DNA from: Dehalococcoidia bacterium
Lineage (GTDB): Bacteria; Chloroflexota; Dehalococcoidia; DSTF01; WHTK01
NCBI GenBank assembly: GCA_965225815.1
Contig: CBDDBP010000006.1
Location: 314,066 to 378,065 of the forward strand
Reading direction: 5' to 3'
DNA length: 64,000 nt
The position numbers and the translations under genes were made by a program. Each line of letters begins with the position of its first letter. Positions within the stretch are counted from its first letter, which is position 1. Of the stretch, positions 1,993-63,195 are shown in pieces. The notes beneath the pieces were generated by a model. It had not been told where the DNA came from, searched no databases, and saw nothing but the letters and a program-made list of their open reading frames with translations.

Positions 1993-2010
1993 GTCCCTGT
2001 ATGGCGCGGA

Positions 2011-2556: not shown

Positions 2557-2683
2557 CTAACTTCTCCCCAAGGAATTATCGTCATGATATCCCGCGCAGT
2601 TTTGGGGTTCAATCGAAGCGTCGAACTAACCAGTTACCACTTCGTATCCGGAGGTACGATCGTGGAGGACAGGCGGCTATCAT

Positions 2684-3919: not shown

Positions 3920-3957
3920 ATGTAGTGTCTTCCTAGTTATCGACAGGTTTTCGCCGA

Positions 3958-31482: not shown

Positions 31483-31528
31483 ATGCAAAGGCGGTGAGTT
31501 CTTGGTGGAGACGGGGGAGAATCGAACT
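31483..31528 (-). mobile_element. att-like scar 1: tmRNA/tRNA 3'-end fragment overlapping a serine recombinase C-terminus
   Basis: minus strand reads AGTTCGATTCTCCCCCGTCTCCACCA; plus strand encodes SWWRRGRIEL; 30-bp exact copy at 48611-48640. Confidence 0.7.
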
Positions 31529-31741
31529 ACACTTAGTTCCGTCGACGAGGGTCGCCGACAGTGGACTTCAGGTTCAGAACTCCTCCGTTTCGTCTCCGAT
31601 AGTCGGCATAAGTCGCTGTGATAAGCCGTCAGATACGTCGTCAAGGTTCTGGCGCTCTCCTTTTGGTATCCCACGGCGCGCCCCATCGCTCTGCCCCTAC
31701 TGCCGGCTTGGCCGCAAAGGGCCACGGATTCGGAAGCAGCG

Positions 31742-31769
31742 TTGACACCCCCCTCCTTGACGGCAGAAT
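31742..31769 (+). promoter_or_regulatory. repeated sigma70-like promoter motif, copy 1
   Basis: TTGACA-N16-CAGAAT, about 10 nt before ATG 31779; related copies at 32090, 33430, 34094, 35786, 61934. Confidence 0.55.
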
Positions 31770-31778
31770 CACGGCACC

Positions 31779-32093
31779 ATGGCGAGCGAGCACAGTCCTG
31801 ACAATCCCGACCTCGCGCCTCATCCAATCCGCGAGCAATCACCTCTGAGGCACCTTGAAGCGCCAGCCTTTCGAGACCGCGCGGGCGGTCGAAAGCCTGG
31901 GTTACTGCGCGCCTGGCTGCTAATGGCTGTGGCGCTCCTCGGACCGGGCCAAATTCTGGTTGGCTACATCGTCGTTTCATCGGGACTTACGCAACTTGGT
32001 TTATTTCTTCTCGTAAGCGGTTTGGGGATGATGGGGTTGGTCATTCTGGCATTGATTCTGGTCGGATTTCTGCTGGTCACTCCCGGCCTTTGA
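31779..32093 (+). CDS. small membrane protein (cassette-like)
   Basis: 2 TM; flanked on both sides by the promoter motif. Confidence 0.5.
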   Translation: MASEHSPDNPDLAPHPIREQSPLRHLEAPAFRDRAGGRKPGLLRAWLLMAVALLGPGQILVGYIVVSSGLTQLGLFLLVSGLGMMGLVILALILVGFLLVTPGL

Positions 32094-32237
32094 CACCCCC
32101 CTCACCAGCGACAGGATCCGTTGGTGGCCGTCCTCCTTTGCAATTTTCGATGAGATACGCGGCCAGGCGGGTTGCAGTCCTGGCTGCCTCACAGTAGCTG
32201 CTGGCCAGTCTGGGTGCCTAACAAGTAGGCTGCTGCT

Positions 32238-33167
32238 ATGCTTGGCGTCGCTCTAGCGCTGCTCTCCGCGTTGTCGTTCAGCCTCCAGAGCGTCATGGCT
32301 CGACGCGGCATGGCGCAGGCCTCCCCCACCGCCGGAGCATTCATCACGATCTGGCTCGGCGTGCCGATCTTCGCGATCGGAGCGCTCGCCAGCGGTCAGC
32401 TGTTCAATGTCGATGGGCTCTCGCTGAAGGCTTACGGATTCCTCGCCGCGGCGGGCGCCATCCACTTCGTCATCGGCCGCAGCTTCGGCTACCGAGCCAT
32501 CGCTGCCATTGGCGCCGCCCGCACCGGGCCGATTACGGCCCTCACGACGCCCTATAGCATTCTCATCGCGATCGTGTTCCTGGGCGAGAACATCTCCCCC
32601 CTTATGGCGATCGGCGTCCTCTGCATCCTTGCCGGTCCCGTGATTATGATTGAAAGACGGCAGCGCCAGCCGGTAAGCGTCGGGGCCGGCGCTCCAGCCG
32701 GCGAGGAAAAGGCCTTCGAGTTCAAGCAAGTGGAGGGCTACGCCTCCGCCGGCATATCGGCGATGGCATACGGCACCAGTCCCATCTTCATCCGCGCCGC
32801 TCTGGAGGGCGAGGCGGGGCTATCCCTCCTCGGCGGCCTAGTGTCCTACACGGCGGCGGCGCTCCTTATGCTGGTCGGCGTCGGCCTGACCAGCCGGCGT
32901 GATCTGGTTACGTCGCTGCGTCCGGAAACCGTCCGGGCATTCGTCGGGGCAGGCTTCCTCTCCGCGATCGCCCAGATGCTGCGGTTCGTCGCTCTCTCGG
33001 TCGCACCGGTCGCCATCGTGACCAGCCTCAACCGCGCCGGCAACGTCTTCACGCTCGGGTTGTCGTGGCTCTTCAATCGCCGCCTCGAGTTCATCACGCG
33101 TCGCGTCGTAGCCGGCGTGTTGCTTTCGGTTCTCGGCGCCATCGTCCTGGTGATCGGCAGTCAGTGA
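32238..33167 (+). CDS. EamA/DMT family transporter
   Basis: 10 TM, two EamA repeats, FLGE motif. Confidence 0.9.
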   Translation: MLGVALALLSALSFSLQSVMARRGMAQASPTAGAFITIWLGVPIFAIGALASGQLFNVDGLSLKAYGFLAAAGAIHFVIGRSFGYRAIAAIGAARTGPITALTTPYSILIAIVFLGENISPLMAIGVLCILAGPVIMIERRQRQPVSVGAGAPAGEEKAFEFKQVEGYASAGISAMAYGTSPIFIRAALEGEAGLSLLGGLVSYTAAALLMLVGVGLTSRRDLVTSLRPETVRAFVGAGFLSAIAQMLRFVALSVAPVAIVTSLNRAGNVFTLGLSWLFNRRLEFITRRVVAGVLLSVLGAIVLVIGSQ

Positions 33168-33309
33168 GCCGTGAGCCTGATCGCGCTAGGCGTCCAGCAA
33201 CTCTGACGCAGCCACCGGCGAGCAAGCGATGCGGTCTGCGCTGCCTCGGCGGGGTCGCCTCACTCTCAAGCAACAATCACCCTACTCTGGTCAACCGACT
33301 AGGACTAAC

Positions 33310-33402
33310 CACCTCGATTTCGCCATCGCTGAGTTCCAGGACATGAAAACGCAGCCGGCGCTGGAGCGGGCGCTTGGGCGTCGGGGGCTGCTGAAGGCGT
33401 AT
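33310..33402 (+). repeat. orphan gene-end repeat R1
   Basis: HLDFAIAEFQDMKTQPALERALGRRGLLKA. Confidence 0.92.
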
Positions 33403-33512
33403 CATTCTTAGTGCGTTGGTCACTGGCCTTTGAATTCTTGCCTCGCCAGCGACAGAATCACAGCGCTTAGCATCGTCTCATCCCGACTACTCGGAGGTAA
33501 GGAGCATCCTGT

Positions 33513-33893
33513 GTGGCGTCAGAGCCTGGGCAGCCAGTCACCTGCAGGCAGTGCAGCTCTGTCTTCTTCAGTAAAGAGGAACTCGATAGACACCTAGCCC
33601 AGACGGGCCACTCGTCTCAGTCTCACCTTCATCGCTATGGGCGCTATCTCCCTCACGCTACCGCGGGTCTTGGTTATCTTGTCGTCGGACTCCTTTCTGA
33701 TTTCGGAAGTGGAACTTTACTCATTGGCGGGCTAGGTGGTTACTTCACAGGCTGGCTCATTGCAAAGACGCTTGGCGTCCCAATGGGCAGGGGTGGTCGA
33801 GGCGGAGGGGGCTGGGGGGGAAGTGGAGGAGGCGATGGCGGCAATGGAGGCGGAGGTAATGGTGGTGGGGGCGGCGGCAACGGAGGCCCTTGA
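33513..33893 (+). CDS. C2H2 zinc-finger membrane protein with Gly-rich tail
   Basis: CRQC...F......RH...GH; 2 TM; GGG tail; AAGGAG RBS. Confidence 0.6.
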   Translation: MASEPGQPVTCRQCSSVFFSKEELDRHLAQTGHSSQSHLHRYGRYLPHATAGLGYLVVGLLSDFGSGTLLIGGLGGYFTGWLIAKTLGVPMGRGGRGGGGWGGSGGGDGGNGGGGNGGGGGGNGGP

Positions 33894-33948
33894 ACGCTTA
33901 ATCCTGGCTACGTTACGCAGGAACGTTGACGGTATGCAGCATCAAGCC

Positions 33949-34032
33949 TTCGCCATCGCCGAGTTCCAGGACATGAAGATGCGGCCCGCCCTGGAACGGG
34001 CGCTGGGGCGCAGAGGGCTGCTGAAGGCGTAG
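33949..34032 (+). repeat. orphan gene-end repeat R2
   Basis: FAIAEFQDMKMRPALERALGRRGLLKA*. Confidence 0.92.
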
Positions 34033-34165
34033 CCCGTGTTTCCTGGCTTACTCACTAACGGATACACAGACTGTGTCCCGCGTAAGCAGACCATTGACAG
34101 CCACCGACGGCAGAATCATTATCCCGCGAGAAGCACGATACCTGAGTAAGAAAGGGAGAAAATCA

Positions 34166-34579
34166 ATGGCAAGTCAGACCGATGTAGCAGGCAGAATAGC
34201 TCTTACGGTTCCTCAGTTCTCCTGGGATCATCCAATTCCTTTGGGTGTTCGGCTCGGCAATCTGGTTATCTCGTCCATAATTCCGCCGCGCGATCCGGAA
34301 ACCGGCGGCACACCATCGGAAGTTAAGCGACAGGTTGAGCTCGTCTTCCAACACATGAAGGGGCTGATCGAGGACGCCGGCGGCACAATCGATGACATCG
34401 CGCGCGTAACGTTCCTCGTCAGGAGCAAGGCAGAACATCGGCCACTCATCGACGAGGAGTGGAACGCAATGTTCTCGGCAGCTGGAGTTCAGCCGGCCCG
34501 GCTCGTCATTGAGGTTCCACCGCAGGGCGGACCATCCATCCAGTGCGAGTTCATCGGCATGCTTGGCTCGAAGCCCTAA
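34166..34579 (+). CDS. RidA/YjgF family protein
   Basis: HPIP...R.GNL, Q...VF..M..L...AG....DI, EW..MF....PAR. Confidence 0.85.
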   Translation: MASQTDVAGRIALTVPQFSWDHPIPLGVRLGNLVISSIIPPRDPETGGTPSEVKRQVELVFQHMKGLIEDAGGTIDDIARVTFLVRSKAEHRPLIDEEWNAMFSAAGVQPARLVIEVPPQGGPSIQCEFIGMLGSKP

Positions 34580-34661
34580 GACGTACCCCGCAGATCAGGG
34601 AGTATAAGAACGATAGCCGCCGTTGGGTCGTCAGGGGCGGCCATCGGCAGCCTTGGAGCGT

Positions 34662-34736
34662 CGCGACGCCGCTTCCGAGCACCTGGACTTCGCCGTCGCC
34701 GAGTTCCAGGACATGAAGATGGAGCGTGCGCTGGGA
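34662..34736 (+). repeat. orphan gene-end repeat R3 (internal deletion)
   Basis: RDAASEHLDFAVAEFQDMKM----ERALG. Confidence 0.85.
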
Positions 34737-34743
34737 TGGTGCT

Positions 34744-34974
34744 ATGAATACTGGACACTACCTCGAACCGATGATCGACGACTCGGAACAGGAGTGCGTG
34801 TTTTGCGGAGACCCGGCTGAGCATCGACTGCTCTGGACGGGGCCAGGATTCTTCGATACGTCTCAAGAAAGTGAGCATCAGGCAGGAACGCACTACCTCA
34901 GAGAGATAGACGAAAGCGTCTGCTCCGAGTGCGGGCAACTACCACTGGATGAGCTCCTGAATCGCCTCGCCTAG
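34744..34974 (+). CDS. small CxxC protein
   Basis: CVFC...CSEC; starts 8 nt after R3. Confidence 0.5.
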   Translation: MNTGHYLEPMIDDSEQECVFCGDPAEHRLLWTGPGFFDTSQESEHQAGTHYLREIDESVCSECGQLPLDELLNRLA

Positions 34975-35026
34975 AAGCTCAGATGAAGGCTCGCCAGAGA
35001 GGCAGCCTTCATGGGTATCGAGCAGC

Positions 35027-35116
35027 CTTGATTTCGCTATTACCGAGTTCCAGGACATGAAAATGCAGCCGGCGCTGGAGCGGGCGCTGGGCCGCAGGGG
35101 GCTGCTGAAGGCGTAG
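35027..35116 (+). repeat. orphan gene-end repeat R4
   Basis: LDFAITEFQDMKMQPALERALGRRGLLKA*. Confidence 0.92.
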
Positions 35117-35152
35117 GGGGTTGGCTCCATCGCCCGCACGGGCCTAGGGTTC

Positions 35153-35668
35153 TTGCGCGTGACTATTCGCTACTTAGCAATTGCCAGCTTTGGAACCGGG
35201 CTAACTGCGCTGGTCGGGTTTATGGTGGGACTGGCCGATCCTGCGTATTACGCTCCCGAAACCACCCTCGACTATGCGGCCGCCACACTCAACACCCTGG
35301 GGCCGGTCGCCGCCGCGGTAGCCCTGTTCATTTGGTGGAAGGTGGTGCAGGTCAGGAGGGGTGTTTTTCTTATCCTGATCGCGGCAGGAAGTGGCTTGGG
35401 GTATGGAGTTGGTAACTTCCTCGGAGATATTGCTGGCTGGGAGCCGGGAGATGACCTGTTCTTTTATGGAAGCGCTGCGTTCTTCTTTGCGTCGTTCGCC
35501 GCCGGCGTCGTGGTTCTTACGGTGCGAAGCAATTGGCGATGGTCTGGGCTATTTCTGCTGGCTGTTGCCGCGGGCGTCGGTGTCGACTCAGCCCTGGTCT
35601 CGGCCATTGGCTGGCTCGCTCTCGGGGTAGTCCTGTGGAAGGGCCTCCTCGGCCAAGCTGAGACGTAA
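35153..35668 (+). CDS. membrane protein (5-6 TM)
   Basis: hydrophobic ORF filling the R4-R5 interval. Confidence 0.65.
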   Translation: MRVTIRYLAIASFGTGLTALVGFMVGLADPAYYAPETTLDYAAATLNTLGPVAAAVALFIWWKVVQVRRGVFLILIAAGSGLGYGVGNFLGDIAGWEPGDDLFFYGSAAFFFASFAAGVVVLTVRSNWRWSGLFLLAVAAGVGVDSALVSAIGWLALGVVLWKGLLGQAET

Positions 35669-35714
35669 TTTCGGCGGCGGCTGAGTGCCTGGTTAAAGTT
35701 CAAGGTTGGCACCC

Positions 35715-35765
35715 CAGTCTGCATTAGAGCGAGCGCTGGGGCGTCGAGGACTGCTGAACGCGTAG
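35715..35765 (+). repeat. orphan gene-end repeat R5 (short)
   Basis: QSALERALGRRGLLNA*, followed by GGTCAC...TCTGGCCTTTGACA promoter motif. Confidence 0.85.
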
Positions 35766-35854
35766 GGTCACCTGCCGTCTGGCCTTTGACACCCTGACTC
35801 GCCAGCGACAGAATCACGACACCGTGACCAGTCACGGGATTGAGCGCCCCCGGC

Positions 35855-35943
35855 GAGCACCCAGCCTTCATCATTGTCGAGTCCCGAGATATGAAGAGGC
35901 AGCCTGGCCTGGAGCGGGCGCTTGGGCGGCGCGGGCGCGGTAG
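35855..35943 (+). repeat. orphan gene-end repeat R6 (degenerate)
   Basis: EHPAFIIVESRDMKRQPGLERALGRRG. Confidence 0.8.
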
Positions 35944-35965
35944 CGGGCCGTCGTTCTGTGCTCCC

Positions 35966-37633
35966 TCACCTCGCGGCGCTGAGCGATCTGTCGTCGTAGA
36001 CCACCACGCCTCCGACGAAGGTCATTGCTGCGGCGATGTCGTCGATTTCGTCCTCGGGTACGTTGAGGAAGTCCGCGTTGAGGATCACCAAATCGGCTAG
36101 CTTGCCGACTTCGACTGATCCGAGTAGGTCTTCTTCGAGCGCGCTCCAGGCGCTCCCCATGGTGTACAGACGCAGGGCCTCGAGGCGTGTAATCTGCTGA
36201 CCATCGTTGACCAACGAGCCCGAAATCGTCCGACCCGTGACCATGTAGTGGATGCCCTGCCACGGATCGAGCGGTCCGATCGCTCGTCCGTCAGAACCCG
36301 CGCCAGCCGTCACCCCGGCATCGATGATGTCCCGAAAGGGTGCGCCCCCGCCAAACGAACCGTAGTAGGCGAAGTTGTGCACGCCGACACCGGCGCCCAG
36401 CTCGGCCAGACGGGCCAGGTGCTCGGGCGAGATCTGATTGGCGTGGTCCAACGACCAGTGGAGGTCGGCCAGTGGCGTCGTGGCATCGACCTCTTCAAAC
36501 GCGCTGATATGGGCGGCGTTCTCTGCGGATCGCAGCGAGTGCTGCGCCAGCGGCCAGCCTAGTGCCGCGATTTCGGACCATCCCGCCGCGAAGTCGGCGG
36601 AGGTATCGCCGAAGCCTCCGACCGAGAACTCACCGACGCCGACCACGCGCAGCATGTCGTCGCCATCGCCTGCACGCCCGAGAGCATCTTCAACCGCCTG
36701 AATCGTCGTCTCGATCCCGCCGAGGCCGCCGAAGCGGAGACGCATGCGCACGGTGAGCTGCTCGCTCTCCCAGAGTCGGTAAGCCTGTTCCCCGTTGCCG
36801 GTGCTCGTCATGTCGATCACCGTCGTGATACCCATCGAATTGGCCCAGGTCATGTACTCCTTGGCGGCCCGCTCGGCGTCAGCGTCCGTCTGCTCGCCTT
36901 GCAAGATCTGGACGGCGCGCGGCGTCCTCTGCTGGTCGATCGGGATGCCGCCATCGGCGGCAATCGTGCCGACGCCGTTTGCCTCTAGATGCGCTTTGGC
37001 GAGCGAATTCACAGCTGCCGGTCCGCTGAAGGAGGCCTGCAGGTAGACCGGATGGTTCGGCGCAACGGCGTCGAGCTCGGCCAGGGTTGGCAACGGGAAC
37101 GCCCTGGTGGGATAGCCCCCGATGACGGTGATGTATTCGCCCGCCGGGACGGTTTGAACCCGCTCGCGAAGCCCGTCGAGAGCGTCTTGGGTCGAACGAG
37201 CCTCCTCGATCTGCGACAAGAAGTGTCCGGGCCGGACCCAGTCTCGCGTGAAATGCACATGGGAATCGATGAAGCCGGGAACGACAGTGCGGCCAGCGAG
37301 ATCGACCACGCAAGCGCCCTCTGGGATCGTGATTGAATCGCCGACGGCGCTGATGTGTGAGCCTTCGAGCAAGACCGACGAAGCTTGTGAGTCTGTCGCG
37401 TCGACCGTGAGAATGACTCCGTTGATCAGGGCGATCACGGTCGAATCGGCAAGGCAACCCGACGGCGGTTGGTTGCTAGCTTCGCTAGCCGTCCCGGTGC
37501 TGGGCGTTTCGCTTAGCCCCTCAGATTGGGCCCCGGTGGTGCCTTTTTGGTTGGGCGTGTCATCTGAGCAGCCCGCCAGGAGGATGACGCCAGCGACGAC
37601 GATGGCGAGAGCTTGCCACCGCGTTATCTTCAT
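35966..37633 (-). CDS. amidohydrolase-3 (YtcJ-like) lipoprotein
   Basis: lipobox LAGC; PGFIDSHVH; GSD; G...VGKLADLVIL. Confidence 0.9.
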   Translation of the reverse strand: MKITRWQALAIVVAGVILLAGCSDDTPNQKGTTGAQSEGLSETPSTGTASEASNQPPSGCLADSTVIALINGVILTVDATDSQASSVLLEGSHISAVGDSITIPEGACVVDLAGRTVVPGFIDSHVHFTRDWVRPGHFLSQIEEARSTQDALDGLRERVQTVPAGEYITVIGGYPTRAFPLPTLAELDAVAPNHPVYLQASFSGPAAVNSLAKAHLEANGVGTIAADGGIPIDQQRTPRAVQILQGEQTDADAERAAKEYMTWANSMGITTVIDMTSTGNGEQAYRLWESEQLTVRMRLRFGGLGGIETTIQAVEDALGRAGDGDDMLRVVGVGEFSVGGFGDTSADFAAGWSEIAALGWPLAQHSLRSAENAAHISAFEEVDATTPLADLHWSLDHANQISPEHLARLAELGAGVGVHNFAYYGSFGGGAPFRDIIDAGVTAGAGSDGRAIGPLDPWQGIHYMVTGRTISGSLVNDGQQITRLEALRLYTMGSAWSALEEDLLGSVEVGKLADLVILNADFLNVPEDEIDDIAAAMTFVGGVVVYDDRSLSAAR

Positions 37634-38091
37634 CGGTCCTCCTCAGCCAGCAGGAGGCTGGCCCTCATTCCATCGAGCCGACCCACTCCGTGACGTGCCC
37701 GAAACCTCATCCTCTCGTTTAACTGCTAGCCGCAGCGTCGCACCAACCATACGGGCACGCCGGTTAGTCCGACAGCACCAAGCCCTGTGCCGCGTAGGAG
37801 ATGCCGGCGGCTGAGCACTCGCTGCTTCCACCTGTGCTGCAAGCTGGCCCTTCCTGGCTACCGGCCGTGTTCGACTCGGACCAGATTATTGATCACGACA
37901 TTGCTATGCGGCGTTCCAGTGCGACTCGCGTTCCCTTTAGATAATCTCTCTTCGGCCAGCGGAGGTTACGGCCAGAAACCAGAATCCTGACTAAATTTCT
38001 CTACGGGCTAAACGAATGTCCAGTGCGGCAACAGGCAGCTCAGCCAGGATACCAAGGAGCATCACCGGAACATGGTTTCCTTTCAGGACAC

Positions 38092-38182
38092 GACGCCGCT
38101 ATCGAGCTACTCGAGTTTGCAATGGCGAGTCCAAGACATCAAGATGCGGCCGACGCTGGGGCGTCGGGGGCTGCTGAAGGCG
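38092..38182 (+). repeat. orphan gene-end repeat R7 (degenerate)
   Basis: DAAIELLEFAM..DIKMRP..LGRRGLLKA with indels. Confidence 0.8.
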
Positions 38183-38183
38183 C

Positions 38184-38211
38184 CGTCACACTATCGCCCG
38201 ATCGTGTAACC
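38184..38211 (+). other. 28-bp 11-6-11 palindromic site S1
   Basis: CGTCACACTAT-CGCCCG-ATCGTGTAACC. Confidence 0.75.
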
Positions 38212-38223
38212 ATCTGGCCTTCA

Positions 38224-38301
38224 GTCGCTGACTGCAAGGACATGAAGATGCAGCCTGCGCTGGAGCGAGCGCTGGGACGTAGGGAGCTGCTGAAGGCGTA
38301 G
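38224..38301 (+). repeat. orphan gene-end repeat R8
   Basis: VADCKDMKMQPALERALGRRELLKA*. Confidence 0.9.
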
Positions 38302-38455
38302 AGAACCGCAACTCGCCGTCGATGAAGGCGTAAAACAAAGCCCGACATGCTGACATGGTTACCTACCACCGTCAGAGGAAGAGGCTGGAGCCGGTTTTCA
38401 GACGTGGCATCCCTGACACTACGGATCTCGATCCTCGCGGTGTCGCCGACGGCGA

Positions 38456-39837
38456 TCAGCCAGAGTCGTCCGCCACAGGCTGTAGACGCCGCGGCGGTCT
38501 GGCGAAGATGACCACCACCGCCGCGATGCCTGCGGTCGCGGCGAAGGCGAGGAAGGCTGAATCGTAGCTGCCAGCGGCATCATAGACACGGGCCGCGAAC
38601 TGCGGACCGATGGCCGTCGCCACCGCGATCAGCGGCAGGGCGACGCCTCGCACCTTGCCGATGTTGACCCGCCCGTAGTACGTCGCCCAGATCAGTTCCT
38701 GCAGGGGAACGCGACCGCCGAAGCCGAGACCCCAGCCCACAAGAAAAAGATAGAGCACCAGTGAGCTGTCAGTGTTGAGGGAAAGGACGATGCCAGCCGT
38801 ACAGACCGACATCAGACCGAAGCTGAAAGAGGCGCAGAAACGCGGTGCGAAGCGCTGCATCATCGCTCCCCAAATCGGGCGTGATAGCGCTGTCGCAAGC
38901 AAAGCGGTGCTGAATCTCGCAGCTCCGGCCTGAGAAGAGAAGCCGGCGTCTTGAACGTTGCGATGAAGTGGAGGAAGAAGGCGCCCGTGCTGAAGCTCGC
39001 CAGAGCAAACGAGACGATAAGCAGCCAGAACGTCTTTGTGTGAATCGCCTCTGCTCTGGTCCACTGCTCCTCAGTAGCGGCCGTAACGACGAGTCTCCTG
39101 CCCGGTGTGGCTTGGATGTCCGCTTCGTCGGTGTCGCCGTCTGGCATGAGGCCGTAGTCCTCGGGACGTCGTCGCATGACTAGCGCTGCCGGGATCGCCA
39201 GGACCAGGAGGCCCAACCCGAGAATCATCCACGAGGTCTCCCAGCCAAAGGAGTCCACAAGCGCGGCTACAATGCGCGGTGTCACAGCTCCGGAGATCGA
39301 CAGGCCGGTCGTGGAGATCGTGATAGCCCAGGCTCGTCGGCGCACGAACCACTTGGAAACCGTCGTGTTGGCGACCAGGTTGCCCAGCATCATCGCACCC
39401 AGAGCGATACCGACGCCCCGTAGCAGCAAGAACTGCCAGATGCTGTCCACCTGGCTAAGGCTGACAACGCTGGCCGACATCACGACGGCCCCAACCAGCA
39501 TGAAAGGACGAGGGCCCTTGGTGTCGAGATGGCTGCCGACCAGGAAACCGCCGCCGCTCATCACCAGCGTCCCCAGGGTCTGGGCCCATGTGAAGTCAGT
39601 TCGGGACCAGCCAAGGTCAGTCGTCATCGGCTCCAGGAAGACGGCCTGAGCGTGGCTCTGTATCGCTACGGCCGTCATCTGGGCGCAGAGAGCCGCCACG
39701 ACTATGTACCAGCCGTAGTAGACCTTACGCGGACGTGCGGCTTGGAGGCGACCAATCAGGCGATTGCGAGCGCGAGGTGGCTCCGCCACGGTCTGACGCA
39801 CGTCAGCGCTTTCCGGCCCTGAGCCAGGTAAGCTCAT
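38456..39837 (-). pseudogene. MFS transporter (OFA-like), frameshifted near 38950
   Basis: YYGWYIV, PMTTDLGWSRT, KWFVRRR; C-terminus YYGR...GKVRG in another frame. Confidence 0.8.
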
Positions 39838-39997
39838 CTTGCGGCAATACTAAAGGCTGAGCGCTTGCTCCGTTGATGGTGCCATATTGACCGAGGACCT
39901 TTTAACAGTTTGCGCCGCCATGTGTAGCGGTTTGGAACGTCAATGACACTCCAGTGGCCGTCGGGCCTGACCCAGAGCTTGCAAGCATTACGATCTG

Positions 39998-40078
39998 ACC
40001 ATCGCCGAGTTCCAGGACATGAAGATGCAGCCTGCGCTGGAGGGGGCGCTGGGACGCAGAGGGCTGCTGAAGGCGTAG
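39998..40078 (+). repeat. orphan gene-end repeat R9
   Basis: TIAEFQDMKMQPALEGALGRRGLLKA*. Confidence 0.92.
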
Positions 40079-40105
40079 GTCACACTATCGCTTGATCGTG
40101 TGACC
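40078..40105 (+). other. 28-bp palindromic site S2, abutting the R9 stop codon
   Basis: GGTCACACTAT-CGCTTG-ATCGTGTGACC. Confidence 0.8.
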
Positions 40106-40119
40106 ACCTAATCCCCGCA

Positions 40120-40193
40120 CTCGCCGAGATCCGGGGTATGAACATGCAGCCTGCGCTGGAGCGGGCACGCGGACCGGGGCGCTGAAGGCGTAG
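40120..40193 (+). repeat. orphan gene-end repeat R10 (degenerate)
   Basis: LAEIRGMNMQPALERA...GCTGAAGGCGTAG. Confidence 0.8.
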
Positions 40194-40324
40194 CTGGTTT
40201 AGCCTAGGAATCTGTCGCTGGCAAACAAGTGTATTAGCGCAAGGCTGTATCGAGAGGGATGGCTTTCAGAAGGGAAGCGGCCCCACGTACTTCCCTTCTG
40301 AGCCGCCCCAATGAGGGCTCGGTA

Positions 40325-40681
40325 TTAGGTGATTGGCTCGTAACCAGGCCCAAGCAGCGGGCACATGAACCGAATGCCACTCCCCATGTCCCAGCGCCCA
40401 CCAACATAGCCGACGTCACCGGGTCCGAACTCTGTGATCAGGCTACCTGCACCACAGTGATTGGCTGCGTCGGGGTCAGGTGCCAAATCTTGGAACGGCC
40501 CCTTATTAGGAAGGTTCTGTGCCGTGACGACGGAGTCATAGCAGAGGTCCTGGCTCTCAACGTAAACCACTACTCGTGGCAGAGGCTTCGGCGGCGTCGT
40601 GGCATTAGCCACACCCGTGAATGTAAGAATCGCCATGGCGGCAGCAGCCACCACAACACCTAGGGTCATCAGTCGTTTCAT
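40325..40681 (-). CDS. small secreted protein
   Basis: signal peptide MKRLMTLGVV..ANA; GAGGAG RBS; TEFGPGD.GYVGGRW. Confidence 0.7.
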   Translation of the reverse strand: MKRLMTLGVVVAAAAMAILTFTGVANATTPPKPLPRVVVYVESQDLCYDSVVTAQNLPNKGPFQDLAPDPDAANHCGAGSLITEFGPGDVGYVGGRWDMGSGIRFMCPLLGPGYEPIT

Positions 40682-40789
40682 AGTGCTCCTCTCCAACTGT
40701 TGTTTGGGGCAAAGCACAGCGTGACGATCTTGGCTTACAGGCCGCTTACGAAGATTACGCTTTGGAGGCATTCCCAGAATCCACGAAGT

Positions 40790-40846
40790 GCGGGCGCTAG
40801 GACGCCGGGGGGCTGGAGGTGTAGGTCACTATTTGGTCATAGTGTC
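40790..40846 (+). repeat. short repeat R11 plus site S3
   Basis: GCGGGCGCTAGGACGCCGGGGGGCTGGAGGTGTAG then GTCACTAT-TTGGTC-ATAGTGTC. Confidence 0.7.
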
Positions 40847-41751: not shown

Positions 41752-41804
41752 CGTTTGACAGCACTCTCTGCTTGCTGTGTCTGCATTCAGGGCGTATCGT
41801 GAGC

Positions 41805-41895
41805 TTGTCGTTCGGGGTGGTCCCGGCAATTTCGGGGCCTGAGAGCACACCCGCGGACCTGATCCGGGTAATGCCGGCGTAGGGAAGGCGATGAC
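41805..41895 (+). ncRNA. TPP riboswitch
   Basis: GGGGTG...CTGAGA...ACCC...ACCTGATCCGGGTAATGCCGGCGTAGGGA upstream of thi genes. Confidence 0.95.
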
Positions 41896-41981
41896 ATTCG
41901 CAGCCCAGCTGTTTCCAGCAACGTCACCGTCTGATTAGGTTTCCGTGACTTGGCCTACCGACCCGGCGGCGGAGGGAACTT

Positions 41982-47816: not shown

Positions 47817-48239
47817 GCAGCTGGTCGGAAAGCACCACATCGTCAGCCGAATCTACGAGCAATGGCCCGAAACCGCTCTCGCAACCAATGCCATCGTTGT
47901 CGCTGCCGTCGAAGCGTTGTAGGTCCGGCAAAACCGTAAAGCGTCGAAAAGCGATATCCCCACAGTCAATGTCGGGAGGCGGCGACTGAATGCAGACCGT
48001 CGGATAGGCCCGGTCGCAATCGCCCAGCGACGACAGCTAGCAATTTGGCCACTACTTTGCCGTCAACCCAGTTCTTTGAGCGAAGCGTCTTCAGACTGGC
48101 GTTCACGTCAGCAAGTCGCAGCGACAGCGAGCAGTTGAAGGGCTCCCTATTGGTCCGATTCCATTTGGGTACCTCTCGATAGACCCTCGACGGGCACCGG
48201 AGCTGATAGCGACTGAGGCAGAGGCGCTGCAAGAAGTCC

Positions 48240-48640
48240 GGAACTTCGCAACAGACTGAGGAAGTTGGGCGTGGCCTACGTTGAAACCGGCATGTCAGAT
48301 GCCCGGTACAGACATCGAAAGGCAGAGTTAGAAGATCAGATCAAGGCAGCCAGTGCGGTCGTGCCGCCTTCTTATGAAGAGGCAGCGGCTCTACTCTTGG
48401 ATTTGGAAGCACTCTGGAAAGAGGCTACGCCGGAAGAACGTCGAAAGCTCATCAGCCCGCTGATCGAACGCGTCTACGTGGACATGGAGCTAAAGCTTGT
48501 GGGGGCGATCACGCCAACGCCGGCATTCAGGGCTCTACTGCGGTGTGCGGTACAAAGAGCGGCTCCAACATCATCCTGGTCTCTCAAGAGGACATGCAAA
48601 GGCCGGTGGTTTCTTGGTGGAGACGGGGGAGAATCGAACT
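48240..48640 (+). pseudogene. large serine recombinase C-terminal fragment ending in att-like scar 2 (48611-48640)
   Basis: LW..ATPEERR.L...LIERVYVD; ends in WWRRGRIEL after a frameshift; tmRNA-like 3' end on the minus strand. Confidence 0.75.
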
Positions 48641-49368
48641 CGGCGGTAGAACTTCCACAGACGTCCGCAGATGACCTTCATCGAGTGCCGTAGATTCAAT
48701 ATGTTCACTCATCAGTCCGCTAACGGTTGCAGAAGGTCACCAAAATCCGCCGGTGCTGTTGTCGGAACTGTTGTCAATTCAGGGATCGATAGTCTCTGAG
48801 AAGCGAAGAACTTAGGTGCAATTGGAGCGATTCTAACCATGCCACGGAGGCAGCGTGCGGGCCGGCCCTGCATCTGGCGCTGGCAAGTGAAGTCAGAAGT
48901 GTAGGAGAAGGGTGGGAAGGAGACTGCGGTGAGACTCTTGGGCCAGCCAAGTGAGCATGACTCTCGACCTCTACAGCCATGTCACGCCGATTATGCAGAG
49001 GGCCGCGGCCGACGCGATGGAGGAAGTCCTGACCTCAGGCTGACCCGAAACTCCGAATCCTCATCTTGGGACCGACGGATTAAAAGTAGGACGGTGGTGA
49101 GAGGCCCCAGAAGGCCCCGTCTTGAATCTGAGTTACTCCCGTTTCGAGCATCTTTCTCGGCGAGTTCGTTGGTCTGCCAGCCGATTAACTCTCTGGTAAT
49201 TCCTTGGAATTCGCAAGAATTCGGATTAACTGGAATTAATTCAAAGACACGCAATTTTCTCACTGGATCCGGTGGGGCGGGTCTTCGACAGAGCCAAAGC
49301 GAGTCGAACGACAAGCGATTCAAACGGCGAGCCTTTACGGGTGATTCGTCACGACGCTGTGACAGAGA

Positions 49369-49437
49369 CACTGGAACAGAGCGCAGCCCACTGGAACAGA
49401 GCGCAGCCCCGTTGTCAGTTGCGACAACGGGGCTGCG
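49369..49437. terminator. 15-bp-stem hairpin preceded by a 20-bp tandem duplication
   Basis: CACTGGAACAGAGCGCAGCC twice; CGCAGCCCCGTTGTC-AGTTGC-GACAACGGGGCTGCG just past the amidohydrolase stop. Confidence 0.65.
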
Positions 49438-49443
49438 TCCTTC

Positions 49444-50466
49444 TCAGACCTGTGCGAGCTGAGGAATGACTTTTGCAGGGTTGTGATGGAAGATCTTGAT
49501 CTTCTCTTCTTCACTGAGCCAATCAAACGCGGCGATAACAGGAACAAGATCATCTCCTGGAACACCGTTTTCTGGGCGTGGGTGTCGACTAGATCCTGGA
49601 GCCTCGACACCAAAGCACATCTGGTCGACTCCTTTTTGTCGAATCGCTGCAGTGAGGTAGTTCACCTCAGGTGCATTGGTATCGAAGAAGAGGTTCTTCG
49701 TCGTATCCCGAGACGGTAGGTGTGGATCACCCTGGACAAAGCGGTCGAGTGCTCCACCGCAGTGACAGATGATGAACTTGATATTTGGAAAGCGATCGAA
49801 GACGTCTCCGTGACCGAGCAGCTGCGTAGCGAAAAACTGCTCGACGTAAAATGCCATCTGGTAGTTCTGAGGAATAATTCTCAGCCGACGGTCCAAGACG
49901 TTCGATGCATGGACGATGATCGGGATGTTGCGTCCTTCGCACTCTTCATAGAGCGGATACCAGTAGTCTTCGTGCATTCCTGGCGTTTCACGCTTGCCAC
50001 CTGGGTCGGGGTTGACATAGGTCGCGACGAAGCCGTACTCGTCAATGCATCGACGAAGTTCAGGCAGCACGTTTGAGGTGTCTTTGTACTCTGAGACGAA
50101 TGGTAGCTGCGATGCGCCAAGGAATCGATCAGGGTAGTAGGTGCACTGCTGGTAGATCATCTCGTTGACCTCTCGGCACCAACTCTCCAGCAGATGATCT
50201 TGCATCCAAGCCATGTGGTTAAGTGGGCGAGGGCCAATGACTTGGACATCAATGTTGCGGTCGTCGATGTACTTCACATGGTTTGCAGCGGCCCAGCGAA
50301 AGTCCTCATCAGTGATTCGGAAATTTGCGGGCAGTCCCTTCCCTGCCTTTAATACCGTGCCAGTTCTGGCAGTGTTTGATCCAAGTAATTGCACAAGCGT
50401 TGCGTTCGCCCCAGTTGGCACGCTGACGTGTGCGTGCACGTCAAGAACTTTGATCCCGTTGTACAT
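49444..50466 (-). CDS. amidohydrolase-2 family protein (LigJ/ACMSD-like)
   Basis: DVHAH; YWYPLYE...P.IVH; CHCGG. Confidence 0.88.
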   Translation of the reverse strand: MYNGIKVLDVHAHVSVPTGANATLVQLLGSNTARTGTVLKAGKGLPANFRITDEDFRWAAANHVKYIDDRNIDVQVIGPRPLNHMAWMQDHLLESWCREVNEMIYQQCTYYPDRFLGASQLPFVSEYKDTSNVLPELRRCIDEYGFVATYVNPDPGGKRETPGMHEDYWYPLYEECEGRNIPIIVHASNVLDRRLRIIPQNYQMAFYVEQFFATQLLGHGDVFDRFPNIKFIICHCGGALDRFVQGDPHLPSRDTTKNLFFDTNAPEVNYLTAAIRQKGVDQMCFGVEAPGSSRHPRPENGVPGDDLVPVIAAFDWLSEEEKIKIFHHNPAKVIPQLAQV

Positions 50467-50519
50467 ACAGCCCCCTTAGTGGTGATTCCTATCCCCGACA
50501 TTCCCCATATCAACTGGCT

Positions 50520-50688
50520 TGGCGGCATCGGGTATGCCTCCCGCCACCTGAAAAGTACGTCCTCCCTGGCAAACGGTCAAGACGCCGAAGAACTGATCGC
50601 GCTGGCGGATTCGATCTTCGACTACCTGTACGTCATCCCCGCCGAAGTTGCCCGCAGAAGGGCGCGGCAGGCCGGTAGCACCCCGTAG
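50520..50688 (+). pseudogene. DUF4145-like C-terminal fragment
   Basis: DAEELIALADSIFDYLYVIPA pattern. Confidence 0.4.
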
Positions 50689-60547: not shown

Positions 60548-60889
60548 CCACCACACGCGTGTAACCTATGCCCATGCCAGCCCATGGCATGCGGAGCGAC
60601 CAGTCCCTGTTCGAACACATGCGGCGTCAGCGCAAGGCTGAGAACGCGCCCCATCTATCGCTCACGCTCTAGGGCAAGGCCGGCTTGAAGCAAACGGTGG
60701 ATACTGATCTTCCATTCCATTGGTTCGATCCGCGCCAATGCCCGCGAGCTCGATATCCAGTACTTGCTTGGTCATGCAAGCCCGATAAGAGGCGCATGGG
60801 GCGACGAGCGACCATCGCCTGCAGGCAGTAGTGGGCCGGCCCACGTCTATCTCTTCATGGGATGGGTGCGGGACCGCGGCGTGAAGCAC

Positions 60890-61025
60890 CGGTACTCAGC
60901 ACCGCCGCCAGCGTGAGGTCAAGGCGTTCTTCTCCTGGTGTCGGCGCATGGACTACGTCGAGGAGAACCCGTTCATGCGGGTGCCGATGGTTCGGCGCGA
61001 GCAGAAGGTCGTTTTGCCGTTTACT
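60890..61025 (+). pseudogene. tyrosine integrase N-terminal fragment
   Basis: VKAFFSWCRRMDYVEENPF..V. Confidence 0.6.
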
Positions 61026-61029
61026 AAAG

Positions 61030-63080: not shown

Positions 63081-63103
63081 GAGTTCCAGGAGATGAAGAT
63101 GCA
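63081..63103 (+). repeat. outlying partial gene-end repeat R12
   Basis: GAGTTCCAGGAGATGAAGATGCA followed by TTGACA. Confidence 0.65.
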
Positions 63104-63195
63104 AGATTGACACTCCCAAGGGCCTGCGGCTGTTGGTGAACCGTTGGTACGGTAATAGAACAGGCGTGCTATGCTGCTCTCGCTCCTAGGGTTAT

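What the first reader, a model, noticed from the sequence alone, without database searches (positions are those of the whole stretch)
33310..40846. Cargo-gene array punctuated by ~11 copies of an orphan gene 3' end (EFQDMKMQPALERALGRRGLLKA*)
Seen: same-strand copies at 33310, 33949, 34662, 35027, 35715, 35855, 38092, 38224, 39998, 40120 and 40790, plus a partial copy at 63081. Between copies lies zero or one unrelated gene (C2H2 membrane protein, RidA, CxxC protein, membrane protein, amidohydrolase, MFS, secreted protein), in either orientation. Most copies end at the same stop (AAGGCGTAG) but have ragged 5' ends. The parent gene is not in the window. Inference: this is a gene-cassette capture locus in which the 3' end of a conserved gene serves as the integration or homology anchor, each acquisition leaving a copy. 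It is neither CRISPR (spacers are gene-sized) nor a classical integron (no intI, no GTTRRRY attC). From memory, unverified, the peptide resembles the C-terminus of large kinase/ATPase/TPR proteins of SAR202-like Dehalococcoidia.
Basis: partly seen in the sequence, partly recalled or inferred. Interest (0 to 1): 0.93.

Follow-up and report, generated by a model that had tools for sequence, protein, structure and literature searches.

The report
Orphaned kinase-gene tails punctuating accessory-gene arrays
The repeat is the cut-off 3' end of a large kinase/ATPase/TPR gene, left about 87 times across this Dehalococcoidia-like genome in same-strand arrays with one accessory gene between copies. It looks like a slow gene-accumulation process anchored on a conserved gene end, without an integron integrase.

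Summary
The window holds 10 significant copies, one weak copy and one 24-nt partial copy of a ~95-nt repeat, all on the + strand, with gene-sized spacers. It is not local: the genome holds 87 copies in about 10 same-strand arrays, and a sister species (G015) has the same architecture. Copies end within 4 nt of one stop codon (76 of 83). Their 5' ends are ragged, 48-167 nt long.

The parent was found. It is a ~1280-aa Ser/Thr-kinase + AAA_16 + TPR protein family whose members end in exactly this peptide. Variation among copies is mostly synonymous, yet only 35 of 87 still read in frame. They are therefore displaced, decaying ends of once-functional genes.

In other Dehalococcoidia and Thermodesulfobacteriota genomes, 7 of 49 intact parents are followed by 1-3 orphan tails on the same strand. 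No integron integrase, attC-like fold or reverse transcriptase was found, and no recombinase is consistently associated.

Best reading (0.5): repeated insertion or replacement at the conserved parent 3' end, driven by homology rather than a fixed site, displaces old tails downstream, as in Rhs/T6SS orphan arrays. The arrays look old and stable.

The parts
33308..33402 (+). Tail copy 1, full length; the stop is changed to TAT
   Evidence: nhmmer E 1.2e-26; sequence
33938..34032 (+). Tail copy 2, full length, ends in TAG
   Evidence: nhmmer E 8.9e-26; D1 reference copy
34678..34737 (+). Tail copy 3, 3'-truncated. It is linked to the upstream RidA cassette, as in G015.
   Evidence: nhmmer E 6.8e-11; alignment with L019
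35022..35116 (+). Tail copy 4, full length
   Evidence: nhmmer E 1.4e-26
35714..35765 (+). Tail copy 5, 5'-truncated (last ~51 nt)
   Evidence: nhmmer E 5.6e-7; D3 reference copy
35784..35935 (+). 'Mini-parent': the parent-type promoter module (TTGACA at 35784, CAGAAT at 35807), start GTG-ACC-AGT at 35822, then tail copy 6 (35856-35935, 3' end degenerate). This is a parent gene that has lost almost its whole interior.
   Evidence: Promoter-module nhmmer hit at C7:349848-349914, E 1.1e-15; the same module lies upstream of the full-length parent at C7:86798-86730; sequence
38109..38185 (+). Tail copy 7, degenerate, stop lost
   Evidence: nhmmer E 2.6e-8
38185..38210 (.). Palindrome GTCACACTATCGCCCGATCGTGTAAC directly after tail 7 and directly before tail 8
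   Evidence: (D9)
38210..38301 (+). Tail copy 8
   Evidence: nhmmer E 7.8e-24
39984..40078 (+). Tail copy 9, full length
   Evidence: nhmmer E 2.3e-26
40079..40105 (.). Palindrome GTCACACTATCGCTTGATCGTGTGACC between tails 9 and 10
   Evidence: (D9)
40105..40193 (+). Tail copy 10, degenerate with deletions
   Evidence: nhmmer E 1.8e-10
40789..40846 (+). Tail copy 11 (last ~35 nt, weak) followed by the palindrome GTCACTATTTGGTCATAGTGTC
   Evidence: nhmmer E 3.5; sequence
63081..63104 (+). 24-nt partial tail (GAGTTCCAGGAGATGAAGATGCAA)
   Evidence: Sequence; nhmmer E 0.18
33403..33937 (+). Cassette A: promoter-module-like stretch at 33423-33461 plus a 126-aa ORF (33513-33893; weak C2H2 match, Gly-rich)
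   Evidence: (D5)
34079..34677 (+). Cassette B: own promoter plus a RidA/L-PSP gene (ORF 34073-34579)
   Evidence: Pfam PF01042, 3e-7; 85% identical block in G015 at another locus, also followed by a tail
34726..34974 (+). Cassette C: 82-aa CxxC ORF
   Evidence: no family
35153..35668 (+). Cassette D: 171-aa membrane-protein ORF
   Evidence: no family
35966..37633 (-). Cassette F: 555-aa amidohydrolase, antisense to the array
   Evidence: Pfam PF07969, 1.1e-59
38456..39837 (-). Cassette G: MFS transporter, antisense. In this assembly it is split by a frameshift. An extra A at 38958 is present in 3 of 4 laid runs.
   Evidence: Pfam PF07690 on both ORFs; table 4; 78% identical gene between two tails in G015
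40325..40771 (-).
31741..33167 (+). Two further promoter modules (31741-31790 and about 32087-32120). They precede a 104-aa membrane ORF (31779-32093) and an EamA transporter (32238-33167), just upstream of tail 1.
   Evidence: hit at C7:345807-345856; sequence; Pfam PF00892
31483..31528 (-). Repeat of the 3' end of the tmRNA gene (ssrA). It is the distal boundary of an ssrA-linked island that contains the array.
   Evidence: (D7)
48599..48640 (-). Second repeat of the ssrA 3' end. The tmRNA gene itself lies at C7:399523-399879, outside the window.
   Evidence: (D7)

Best explanation
The repeats are orphaned 3' ends ('tails') of a multicopy gene family that is often arranged in tandem. The family encodes ~1280-aa Ser/Thr-kinase + AAA_16 ATPase + TPR proteins. 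Its last ~90 codons, and above all the final 31, are unusually conserved.

New DNA repeatedly enters at, or replaces the interior of, a parent gene. Recombination is anchored in the conserved tail, and sometimes also in the parent's promoter/5' stub. The other junction is illegitimate or lies in another tail. The mechanism could be homology-facilitated illegitimate recombination, Campbell-type insertion of tail-bearing fragments, or tail-to-tail exchange.

Each event leaves the previous tail, cut at an arbitrary 5' point, downstream of the new cargo. Over time this builds same-strand arrays of the form [cargo gene - 5'-ragged tail]n. The sharp 3' edge is simply where coding constraint, and so homology between different parent genes, ends. 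The displaced tails then decay.

Shown: the anatomy, the parent, the coding-type variation, the decay, the generality across genomes and the absence of integron parts.
Inferred: the recombination mechanism and the order of events.
For: - **Parent.** 55 proteins match at E<=1e-3. The full-length ones read (P0004, P0005, P0010, P0032; also P0001, 881 aa) end in ...AIEHLDFAIAEF(R)DMKMQPALERALGRRGLLKA. Pfam gives Pkinase + AAA_16 + TPR_12.
- **Tails are over-represented.** tblastn with P0004 gives 38 tail-only HSPs out of 49. nhmmer finds 87 tails.
- **Coding history.** In 37 in-frame copies out of 78, diversity at codon positions 1/2/3 is 0.16/0.10/0.31. Synonymous sets include CCT/CCC/CCG/CCA, CGT/CGC/CGA/AGG and TAG/TAA. 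The bias persists without that filter.
- **Decay.** Only 35 of 87 tails still read in frame.
- **Arrays start at parents.** Parent residues 54-886 lie directly upstream of the 15-copy array on C7. Parent 5' pieces lie at or inside the arrays on C1, C2, C6 and C8. Two 'mini-parents' (promoter + start + tail) lie at window 35784-35935 and C7:600850-601010.
- **Generality.** 7 of 49 intact parents in other genomes with >=1 kb of downstream flank carry 1-3 orphan tails within 5 kb, all on the same strand. These include two loci whose record titles name Thermodesulfobacteriota and Deltaproteobacteria. L072 was read base by base.
- **Breakpoints are not at one fixed site.** The RidA block starts 47 nt after a stop in the window but after an amidase remnant in G015. 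A 94%-identical Rieske block shared with L079 has its left edge inside a tail. A 99.3%-identical 2.7-kb duplicate on C1 breaks after ...AAGATGCAGCC inside a tail.
- **No dedicated machinery found.** The best IntI model score is 81 bits against a cut-off of 265. Single-strand fold z-scores are -1.3 to +1.15. No RVT_1 match was found. Only 4 of 78 related loci hold a tyrosine-recombinase match in their flanks.
- **Precedent.** Sequential displacement with orphan arrays has been ascribed to homology-facilitated illegitimate recombination (PMC5361080, passages read).
Against: - No event was caught in the act. Logan contigs of four runs show the same cassettes and no trustworthy excision or circle joints.
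- Only 1 of 111 boundaries of recent duplications lies in a tail, against 0.35 expected.
- Homologous recombination on ~90 nt at 80-90% identity is inefficient (established knowledge). Homology-facilitated illegitimate recombination is rare where it has been measured (PMC5361080).
- Cassettes are very compact. For the 29 same-strand cargo ORFs, the median gap is 62 nt from the stop of the previous tail to the ORF and 45 nt from the ORF to the next tail. That looks more like defined units than random illegitimate joins.
- At least six 'palindrome + tail' units share one junction, which hints at propagation of a defined unit.
- Tyrosine or serine recombinase genes lie within a few kb of several arrays.
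- The window array has no parent 5' part at its head.
Confidence: 0.5

Rival explanations
1. A dedicated site-specific cassette system, a functional analogue of an integron. An unidentified recombinase would recombine a site within the last ~48 nt of the tail, or the 8-6-8 palindrome next to it. It would move [ORF + tail] cassettes between arrays.
For: - Arrays are same-strand: 15/15, 10/10, 9/9 and 9/9 copies.
- Spacers are gene-sized, median 1208 nt, range 26-4668.
- The ORF-tail units are compact.
- Every detected copy keeps at least the last ~48 nt.
- A palindrome (G/C)ACAC(T/G)AT-N6-AT(A/C)GTGT(C/G), with a variable 6-nt centre, lies 2-3 nt after the stop at 13 of the 23 sites inspected. 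At 6 of the 23 it is joined to a tail at one fixed point.
- A large serine recombinase sits divergently 0.5 kb before the C7:581k array, and a tyrosine recombinase sits 1.3 kb before the C8:163k array.
- The RidA and MFS cassettes are found beside tails at other loci in G015.
Against: - No integron integrase was found.
- No single-strand fold is better than shuffles.
- Synonymous sites inside the putative 48-nt site vary freely; third-position diversity reaches 0.45-0.68 at the G-R-R codons.
- The recombinases near arrays belong to different families and have no constant geometry. Most arrays, including the window's, have none nearby.
- Tails flanking an integrase-bearing segment share no long identical core, and adjacent tails are no more alike than random pairs.
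- Only 13-14 of the 87 tails are directly followed by the palindrome. It sits just upstream of the -35 box of the parent promoter, which fits an operator.
- The left edge of the RidA block is not at the stop.
- 14 of 43 cargo ORFs are antisense.
Confidence: 0.2
2. The arrays are decayed tandem accretions of ordinary integrase-bearing islands that use the parent's 3' end as attB and carry a replacement tail. This is how phage and island integration into gene 3' ends works, and how the ssrA islands of Dehalococcoides work. Deletions would then have removed integrases and most island DNA.
For: - About 9-10 of the 24 Phage_integrase matches lie within 5 kb of a tail, where about 3 would be expected. 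This is my own tally, not a formal test. Several are broken.
- In 2 of the 49 other-genome loci with downstream flank, a tyrosine-recombinase match (tblastn with this genome's recombinases) starts ~0.4 kb after the parent's stop (L070, L080).
- An integrase lies between two full-length tails at C6:437434-442285.
- The same genome shows classical accretion at ssrA, with the tmRNA 3' end repeated twice. That mechanism is documented in Dehalococcoides (PMC3146451, search listing and start of the abstract only).
Against: - 61 spacers have a median of 1.2 kb and mostly hold one metabolic gene with no integrase remnant.
- Direct repeats left by site-specific integration share a fixed 5' start (the crossover or identity block). 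Here the 5' ends are spread over 48-167 nt.
- No second tail that could serve as attR was found on the parent's own contig in the genomes of L080 and L070, though those contigs are short.
- Orphans in other genomes are separated by only 0.1-1.2 kb.
- Integrases and tails may simply both collect in plastic regions.
Confidence: 0.15
3. The tail is itself a functional unit that selection keeps beside accessory genes: a small peptide (MKMQPALERALGRRGLLKA), an RNA element or an insulator.
For: - Variation is of the coding type.
- An AGGA lies 7 nt before the second ATG (sequence).
- 22 of the 35 intact tails keep the internal Met codons.
- The last ~20 nt are the best conserved.
Against: - 52 of 87 tails have frameshifts, stops or heavy divergence.
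- By my reading of the list, eight tails are shorter than the 60 nt needed to include the first ATG.
- There is no stable fold and no Rfam family in the window except a TPP riboswitch elsewhere.
- When copies are chosen by their 5' part only, the 3' end shows ordinary synonymous variation.
- The peptide is the C-terminus of the parent protein; Pfam TPR_12 covers residues 1192-1256 of 1281.
Confidence: 0.07
4. An assembly artefact or a chance repeat.
For: Short-read Logan contigs break inside every full-length tail, so the order of cassettes across those tails is not independently confirmed.
Against: - nhmmer E-values reach 1e-26.
- In runs X5, X6 and X10, each cassette is covered at >=99% by contigs that run into tails on both sides. 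Contigs bridge tails 5-6, 7 and 10-11 (table 8).
- G015, an independent single-contig genome, shows 30 tails in the 71 kb fetched, with the same architecture.
- Loci of other genomes show orphan tails too.
Confidence: 0.01

Closest known systems
Orphan-module arrays made by sequential displacement (Rhs/CdiA orphan toxin-immunity modules; T6SS effector-immunity arrays of Vibrio cholerae; PMC5361080, passages read)
   Same: A conserved stretch of a large polymorphic gene acts as the recombination anchor. Each incoming module pushes older material downstream. Strings of orphans keep 5'-ragged fragments of the conserved part. [quoted passage not shown]
   Different: Here the conserved fragment is the very end of the gene, up to its stop. 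What follows is an unrelated, self-promoted accessory gene (oxygenases, amidohydrolases, transporters), not a toxin tip with its immunity gene. The copy number is far higher (87) and most arrays are detached from an intact parent.
Integrons and integrase-less attC clusters (CALINs)
   Same: Same-strand arrays of a ~60-140-nt repeat, with usually one gene of 0.5-2 kb between repeats, and cargo that differs between relatives.
   Different: There is no IntI and no attC hairpin or R'/R'' cores. The repeat is a coding-gene end with synonymous variation. Cassettes carry promoters, and in 14 of 43 the ORF is antisense. The attC features are from my own knowledge; integron papers were seen only as a listing.
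Tandem islands at the 3' end of ssrA in Dehalococcoides (PMC3146451; listing and start of the abstract only), and tRNA/tmRNA island accretion generally
   Same: Repeated copies of a target gene's 3' end lie downstream of that gene, on the same strand, and separate blocks of acquired genes, in the same bacterial class. The window itself lies in such an ssrA-linked region.
   Different: Those islands are kb to tens of kb long, carry integrases and have a short fixed repeat. Here the units are single genes, the 5' ends are ragged, and most units have no integrase.
Prophage integration into the 3' end of a protein gene with a replacement end
   Same: The element supplies an alternative 3' end that differs mostly at synonymous sites, and the displaced original end stays as a pseudogene fragment.
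   Different: That is a single event per genome with a defined integrase and crossover, not arrays.

Membership tests
Classical integron | IntI-type tyrosine recombinase next to the array | tested here: not met
   TIGR02249 in the whole genome (92.8% complete): best match 81 bits against a cut-off of 265; none over the cut-off
Classical integron | attC sites: imperfect inverted repeats that fold as single-stranded hairpins, with R''/R' cores (GTTRRRY) | tested here: not met
   Six single-strand DNA folds of three copies, both strands: z from -1.33 to +1.15, and 20-179 of 200 shuffles fold as well. No GTTRRRY at the boundaries.
Classical integron | Mostly promoterless, co-oriented cassettes read from a common Pc promoter | tested here: not met
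   Promoter modules lie inside the arrays. 29 of 43 largest ORFs are on the same strand and 14 are antisense.
CRISPR array | Short repeats with 20-70-nt spacers | tested here: not met
   61 spacers, median 1208 nt, range 26-4668
REP/MITE-type dispersed repeat | Non-coding palindromic or TIR-bounded unit scattered through intergenic DNA | tested here: not met
   The repeat is a coding-gene end with no fold. 62 of the 87 copies lie in the seven largest same-strand arrays, of 4-15 copies each.
Site-specific island accretion at a gene 3' end (ssrA/tRNA type) | Intact target gene at the head, with repeats of its 3' end downstream on the same strand | tested here: inconclusive
   Met for 7 of 49 loci in other genomes and, with a truncated parent, for the C7:153k array. 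Not met for the window array.
Site-specific island accretion at a gene 3' end (ssrA/tRNA type) | An integrase per island and a fixed identical core in the repeats | tested here: not met
   Most spacers hold one metabolic gene. 5' ends spread over 48-167 nt. Adjacent tails are no more alike than others: 16.9 against 18.4-18.7 differences per 51 nt.
Sequential-displacement orphan arrays (Rhs/CDI/T6SS type) | Conserved anchor region of a large gene, orphans keeping 5'-ragged pieces of it, and the main gene upstream | tested here: met
Sequential-displacement orphan arrays (Rhs/CDI/T6SS type) | Variable module is a toxin domain plus a cognate immunity gene | tested here: not met
   Cargo is Rieske oxygenases, FAD hydroxylase, aldo/keto reductase, amidohydrolase, MFS, RidA, methyltransferase and protease
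Retro-copied (5'-truncated) pseudogenes | A reverse transcriptase in the genome, and copies derived from one master with random decay | tested here: not met
   No PF00078 match. Variation is synonymous-biased.

The most novel reading that the evidence does not exclude
The parent gene is a genomic landing pad for an integrase-less gene-cassette system, or one that uses a new recombinase, in Dehalococcoidia. Units built as [parent-type promoter or own promoter - one accessory gene - parent tail] would be exchanged between arrays and between genomes by recombination at the tail, with the adjacent 8-6-8 palindrome as a possible core site. This would give these slow-growing organisms an integron-like store of catabolic and transport genes. 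The tail would then be the functional counterpart of attC, recruited from a coding sequence.
Probability: 0.2. Interest if true: 0.9.

Novelty: new variant of a known kind. Interest (0 to 1): 0.7.

Why it matters
Dehalococcoidia and their relatives are abundant and hard to culture, and their large sets of paralogous catabolic genes are poorly explained. Here a single conserved gene end marks about 87 junctions at which accessory genes have accumulated: Rieske and FAD oxygenases, amidohydrolases, reductases and transporters. The same signature, in miniature, follows intact parent genes in other Dehalococcoidia and in Thermodesulfobacteriota.

If the process is homology-anchored, it extends the 'sequential displacement' logic known from polymorphic toxin loci to ordinary metabolic genes, on a scale that rivals chromosomal integrons. 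If a dedicated recombinase is behind it, it would be a new cassette system.

There are practical uses too. The tail is a ready marker for finding variable accessory-gene regions in metagenomes. It is also a cause of assembly breaks: short-read contigs end in every full-length tail.

Tried and rejected
**attC-like hairpin.** Folding three copies on both strands as single-stranded DNA gave nothing better than shuffles.

**Integron integrase.** None found.

**Reverse transcriptase.** None found.

**A multicopy 304-aa tyrosine recombinase as the trans-acting enzyme.** It has 10 matches in G000 and 17 in G015. It also has 8 in G013, which has no tail match, and in G015 it mostly lies away from the tail arrays. 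Rejected as the driver.

**A DNA-level core in the last 18 nt.** The low synonymous diversity seen came from my own selection of copies, which required alignment to the very end. When copies were chosen by their 5' 62 nt, the effect largely vanished. Not claimed.

**Adjacent tails as fresh duplicates.** Not supported.

**Tails as breakpoints of recent duplications.** 1 of 111 boundaries; that single case was read.

**Reads.** Only Logan contigs were available, no raw reads. The listed joints have short sides (20-66 nt) and join one tail to another, as expected from the other tails of the same genome. I take them as no evidence for excision or circles. Run X1 holds only short low-depth pieces.

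**Integrase-bearing elements downstream of parents in L080 and L070.** No second tail was found on the parent's own contig, but those contigs are short.

**PADLOC.** Only the generic kinase domain matched, so this says nothing about defence.

**GC content.** Cassettes are at 0.557-0.63 against 0.60 for the window, so no foreign signal.

**Literature.** The searches found no description of this repeat or of orphan tails of this kinase family. This holds for the held library only.

Full report
**Observation.**
- The stretch 33308-40846 holds eleven + strand copies of a repeat that reads ...HLDFAIAEFQDMKMQPALERALGRRGLLKA-stop.
- A profile of five copies finds ten of them at E 1e-26 to 6e-7. The eleventh (40789-40823) scores only E 3.5.
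- The copy at 63081 is a 24-nt fragment.
- Between copies lie 26-nt to 2.2-kb spacers. Pfam confirms RidA, Amidohydro_3, MFS_1 and a weak C2H2 match; the others match no family.

**The repeat is genome-wide and arrayed.**
- The window is C7:314066-378065 of a 3.26-Mb, 8-contig genome.
- nhmmer finds 132 hits at E<=10 and 87 at E<1e-3, in 28 clusters. The clusters include arrays of 15, 10 (the window), 9, 9, 7, 4 and 4 copies.
- Each array lies on one strand, except one that switches once.
- The 61 spacers between neighbouring tails have a median of 1208 nt.
- In 43 spacers with an ORF of >=140 aa, that ORF lies on the array's strand in 29 and antisense in 14. For the 29, the median gap is 62 nt after the preceding stop and 45 nt before the next tail.

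**Edges.**
- With a 360-nt profile of parent-gene ends, 76 of 83 hits stop within 4 nt of the stop codon.
- The 5' extents of 81 of the 83 hits spread from 48 to 167 nt. The other two are a 300-nt remnant and the full-length gene.
- Conservation drops to background immediately after the stop.

**The parent.**
- A 126-aa remnant (C6, locus L001) recovered 55 longer proteins at E<=1e-3. Many are ~1260-1300 aa with Pkinase, AAA_16/AAA_22 and TPR_12 domains.
- Of the eight I read, P0004, P0005, P0010, P0032 and P0001 end in the repeat's peptide and P0024 ends in a close variant. P0040 carries the peptide internally, before a cyclase domain. P0055 is an amidohydrolase from another phylum fused in frame to such a tail.
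- The genome has one full-length parent, 1281 aa, at C7:82915-86760. It has a frameshift in its last ~10 codons.
- Several 5' pieces also exist: residues 54-886 directly upstream of the 15-copy array, and pieces on C1, C2, C6 and C8 at or inside arrays.
- Tails far outnumber every other part of the gene: 38 of 49 tblastn HSPs are tail-only.

**What the variation says.**
- Among 37 in-frame copies, diversity at codon positions 1/2/3 is 0.16/0.10/0.31, with rich synonymous sets, including TAG and TAA stops.
- The third-position excess remains in all 78 aligned copies, and in 64 copies picked only by their 5' part.
- So the copies diverged while they were ends of working genes.
- Today only 35 of 87 read through in the parent frame, so they are decaying remnants.
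- Their residue signature (ALGRRGLLKA) is that of parents in the same genus. More distant parents end in forms such as ALRHKEILKA.
- Neighbouring tails are no more alike than random pairs.

**Relatives.**
- With a 51-aa query, 10 of 41 related genomes (G000 included) have a match. G000 has 26 and G015 has 22, mostly in short frames. The other eight with a match have 1-4 each, among them full-length genes; 31 have none.
- In 71 kb fetched from G015, nhmmer finds 30 tails, again in same-strand runs.
- Only EamA is shared between the window and the matching G015 locus, and G015 has its own tails nearby.
- Of the seven cargo genes of the window array, two have nucleotide homologues in G015. These are RidA (85%) and MFS (78%). 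Both lie at other loci and both lie beside tails.
- The RidA block carries its promoter, the gene and the start of the following tail in both genomes, but has different left neighbours.
- A Rieske-oxygenase block is 94% identical between C7:600971-602529 and locus L079. Its left edge lies inside a tail and its right edge does not.
- In L079 a parent gene is also interrupted ~90 codons from its end by an IS1595 transposase gene and a RelA/SpoT-domain gene.

**Generality.**
- The search for related loci returned 78 loci of parents. Their record titles call them Dehalococcoidia/Chloroflexota, with a few Thermodesulfobacteriota, 'Deltaproteobacteria' and one Acidobacteriota.
- 56 loci have a full-type tail and 49 of these have >=1 kb of downstream flank.
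- In 7 of the 49, one to three orphan tails follow within 5 kb on the same strand.
- In L072 the parent is followed by a small gene and a 75-nt orphan. Two further orphans then lie in a 194-nt tandem duplication, and another small gene follows.
- The signature is therefore a property of this gene family. It is hugely amplified in G000 and G015.

**Other parent-derived modules.**
- A palindrome, (G/C)ACAC(T/G)AT-N6-AT(A/C)GTGT(C/G), gives 54 strand-wise matches, about 27 loci, nearly all in array regions.
- I inspected 23 sites. At 13 the palindrome directly follows a tail's stop (one more is doubtful). At 6 it is joined at one fixed point to a tail that starts at HLDF. At 3 or more it is followed by a promoter module.
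- That module (TTGACACCC...CAGAATC...GTGACCAGT) has 22 hits at E<1e-2. One lies just upstream of the full-length parent and one upstream of the parent fragment on C2. Hits or look-alikes in the window lie at 31741, 32087, 33423 and 35784.
- I infer that the palindrome is an operator of the next parent in a tandem series. Tandem parents exist in G006.
- I also infer that 'promoter + start + tail' units are parents that lost their interior (window 35784-35935; C7:600850-601010).

**Machinery.**
- No IntI was found, no attC-like fold and no reverse transcriptase.
- There are 24 Phage_integrase matches and 2 serine recombinases. Some lie next to arrays, but they belong to several families and have no constant geometry.
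- The tails around one integrase-bearing segment share no long identical core.
- In the flanks of the 78 other-genome loci, only 4 hold a tyrosine-recombinase match. Two of these lie right after the parent's stop.

**Activity.**
- Logan contigs of runs X5, X6 and X10 hold each cassette with 0-3 differences per piece of 0.3-2.8 kb (6 over 3.4 kb in the longest) and run into tails on both sides.
- They end inside full-length tails, so cassette order across those tails rests on the source assembly.
- No credible excision or circle joint was seen.
- Of 111 boundaries of >=95%-identical duplicated blocks, one lies in a tail. In that case a 2.7-kb block breaks after ...AAGATGCAGCC, and on the other copy it continues into what may be a very diverged tail.
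- The arrays therefore look old and slow.

**Context.** The array lies inside a region bounded by two repeats of the tmRNA gene's 3' end, at window 31483-31528 and 48599-48640. The gene itself is at C7:399523-399879. This is the known island-accretion pattern at ssrA (PMC3146451, listing and start of the abstract only).

**Interpretation.**
- The best fit is sequential insertion or replacement at the conserved parent end, which displaces older tails downstream. It is anchored by homology rather than by a fixed site. This is the logic proposed for Rhs and T6SS orphan arrays (PMC5361080, passages read).
- The compact ORF-tail units, the recurrent palindrome-tail junction and the nearby recombinases keep a dedicated cassette system alive as a rival.
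- I rate the homology-anchored reading at 0.5, a site-specific system at 0.2, decayed integrase-borne islands at 0.15, a functional tail at 0.07 and an artefact at 0.01.
- The searches found no prior description.

Noticed in passing
window 31483-31528 and 48599-48640 (- strand); tmRNA gene at G000:C7:399523-399879: The 3' end of the tmRNA gene (ssrA) is repeated twice downstream of the gene. The repeats delimit about 37 kb and 17 kb of DNA, like the tandem ssrA islands described in Dehalococcoides. The tail array lies in the distal block.
   Followed up: partly
window 48239-50580: A 2.3-kb stretch is 99% identical to G015:C1:872670-874991, while other shared genes are 71-88% identical. It holds an Amidohydro_2 gene and one ssrA-end repeat. 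This may be a recent exchange between the two species.
   Followed up: partly
window 38958: The MFS gene is split by a frameshift in this assembly. Contigs of 3 of the 4 laid runs (X1, X6, X10) carry an extra A here that would close it. This is either strain variation or a homopolymer error.
   Followed up: partly
G000:C1:850461-857101 and 869374-870275; C6:30483-30926; C4:133554-133838; C7:381656-382343; fragment at window 60833-61032: A ~1.1-kb unit encoding a 304-aa tyrosine recombinase is multicopy and partly degraded. It has 10 matches in G000, 17 in G015, 9 in G004, 8 in G013 and 2 in G002. It behaves like an insertion element and is not tied to the tails.
   Followed up: partly
window 60948-61574: This ORF has a nSTAND3 NTPase domain and starts inside the 200-nt recombinase-gene fragment.
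   Followed up: no
window 41803-41903: A TPP riboswitch (61.8 bits) lies ahead of a gene block that is 71% identical to G015:C1:2557397-2562478.
   Followed up: no
G000:C7:82915-86760: The only full-length parent gene of this genome has a one-base frame change about 10 codons before the usual stop. It ends ...LERHWDVEGC instead of ...LERALGRRGLLKA.
   Followed up: partly
P0055 (244 aa): An amidohydrolase that its source names as from a Syntrophorhabdales MAG is fused in frame to a parent-type tail (...LAELLLDHYPDEKAVALEHLDFAIKDLREMKMQPALERAFKQKEALEA). So cargo-tail junctions occur outside Chloroflexota.
   Followed up: no
G000:C1:931693-933061 and C1:1-2084, against L079 15299-18730: The two ends of contig C1 are adjacent in the related locus L079 (93% and 90% identity). 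C1's ends probably join, or the contig was cut inside a syntenic region.
   Followed up: no
G000 genome-wide and arrays C6:439206-442116, C7:582124-584905, C8:410934-412310: Rieske/LigXa-like oxygenase genes form a very large paralogue family. Dozens of blastn matches came from one query, and it is the commonest cargo in the tail arrays, with 5 members.
   Followed up: partly
G000:C1:860646-868987 against C1:905548-910766 and C1:922981-925682: Two near-identical blocks (99.98% over 5.2 kb; 99.3% over 2.7 kb) are adjacent in one place and 12 kb apart in the other. This shows recent rearrangement in a repeat-rich zone of C1.
   Followed up: partly
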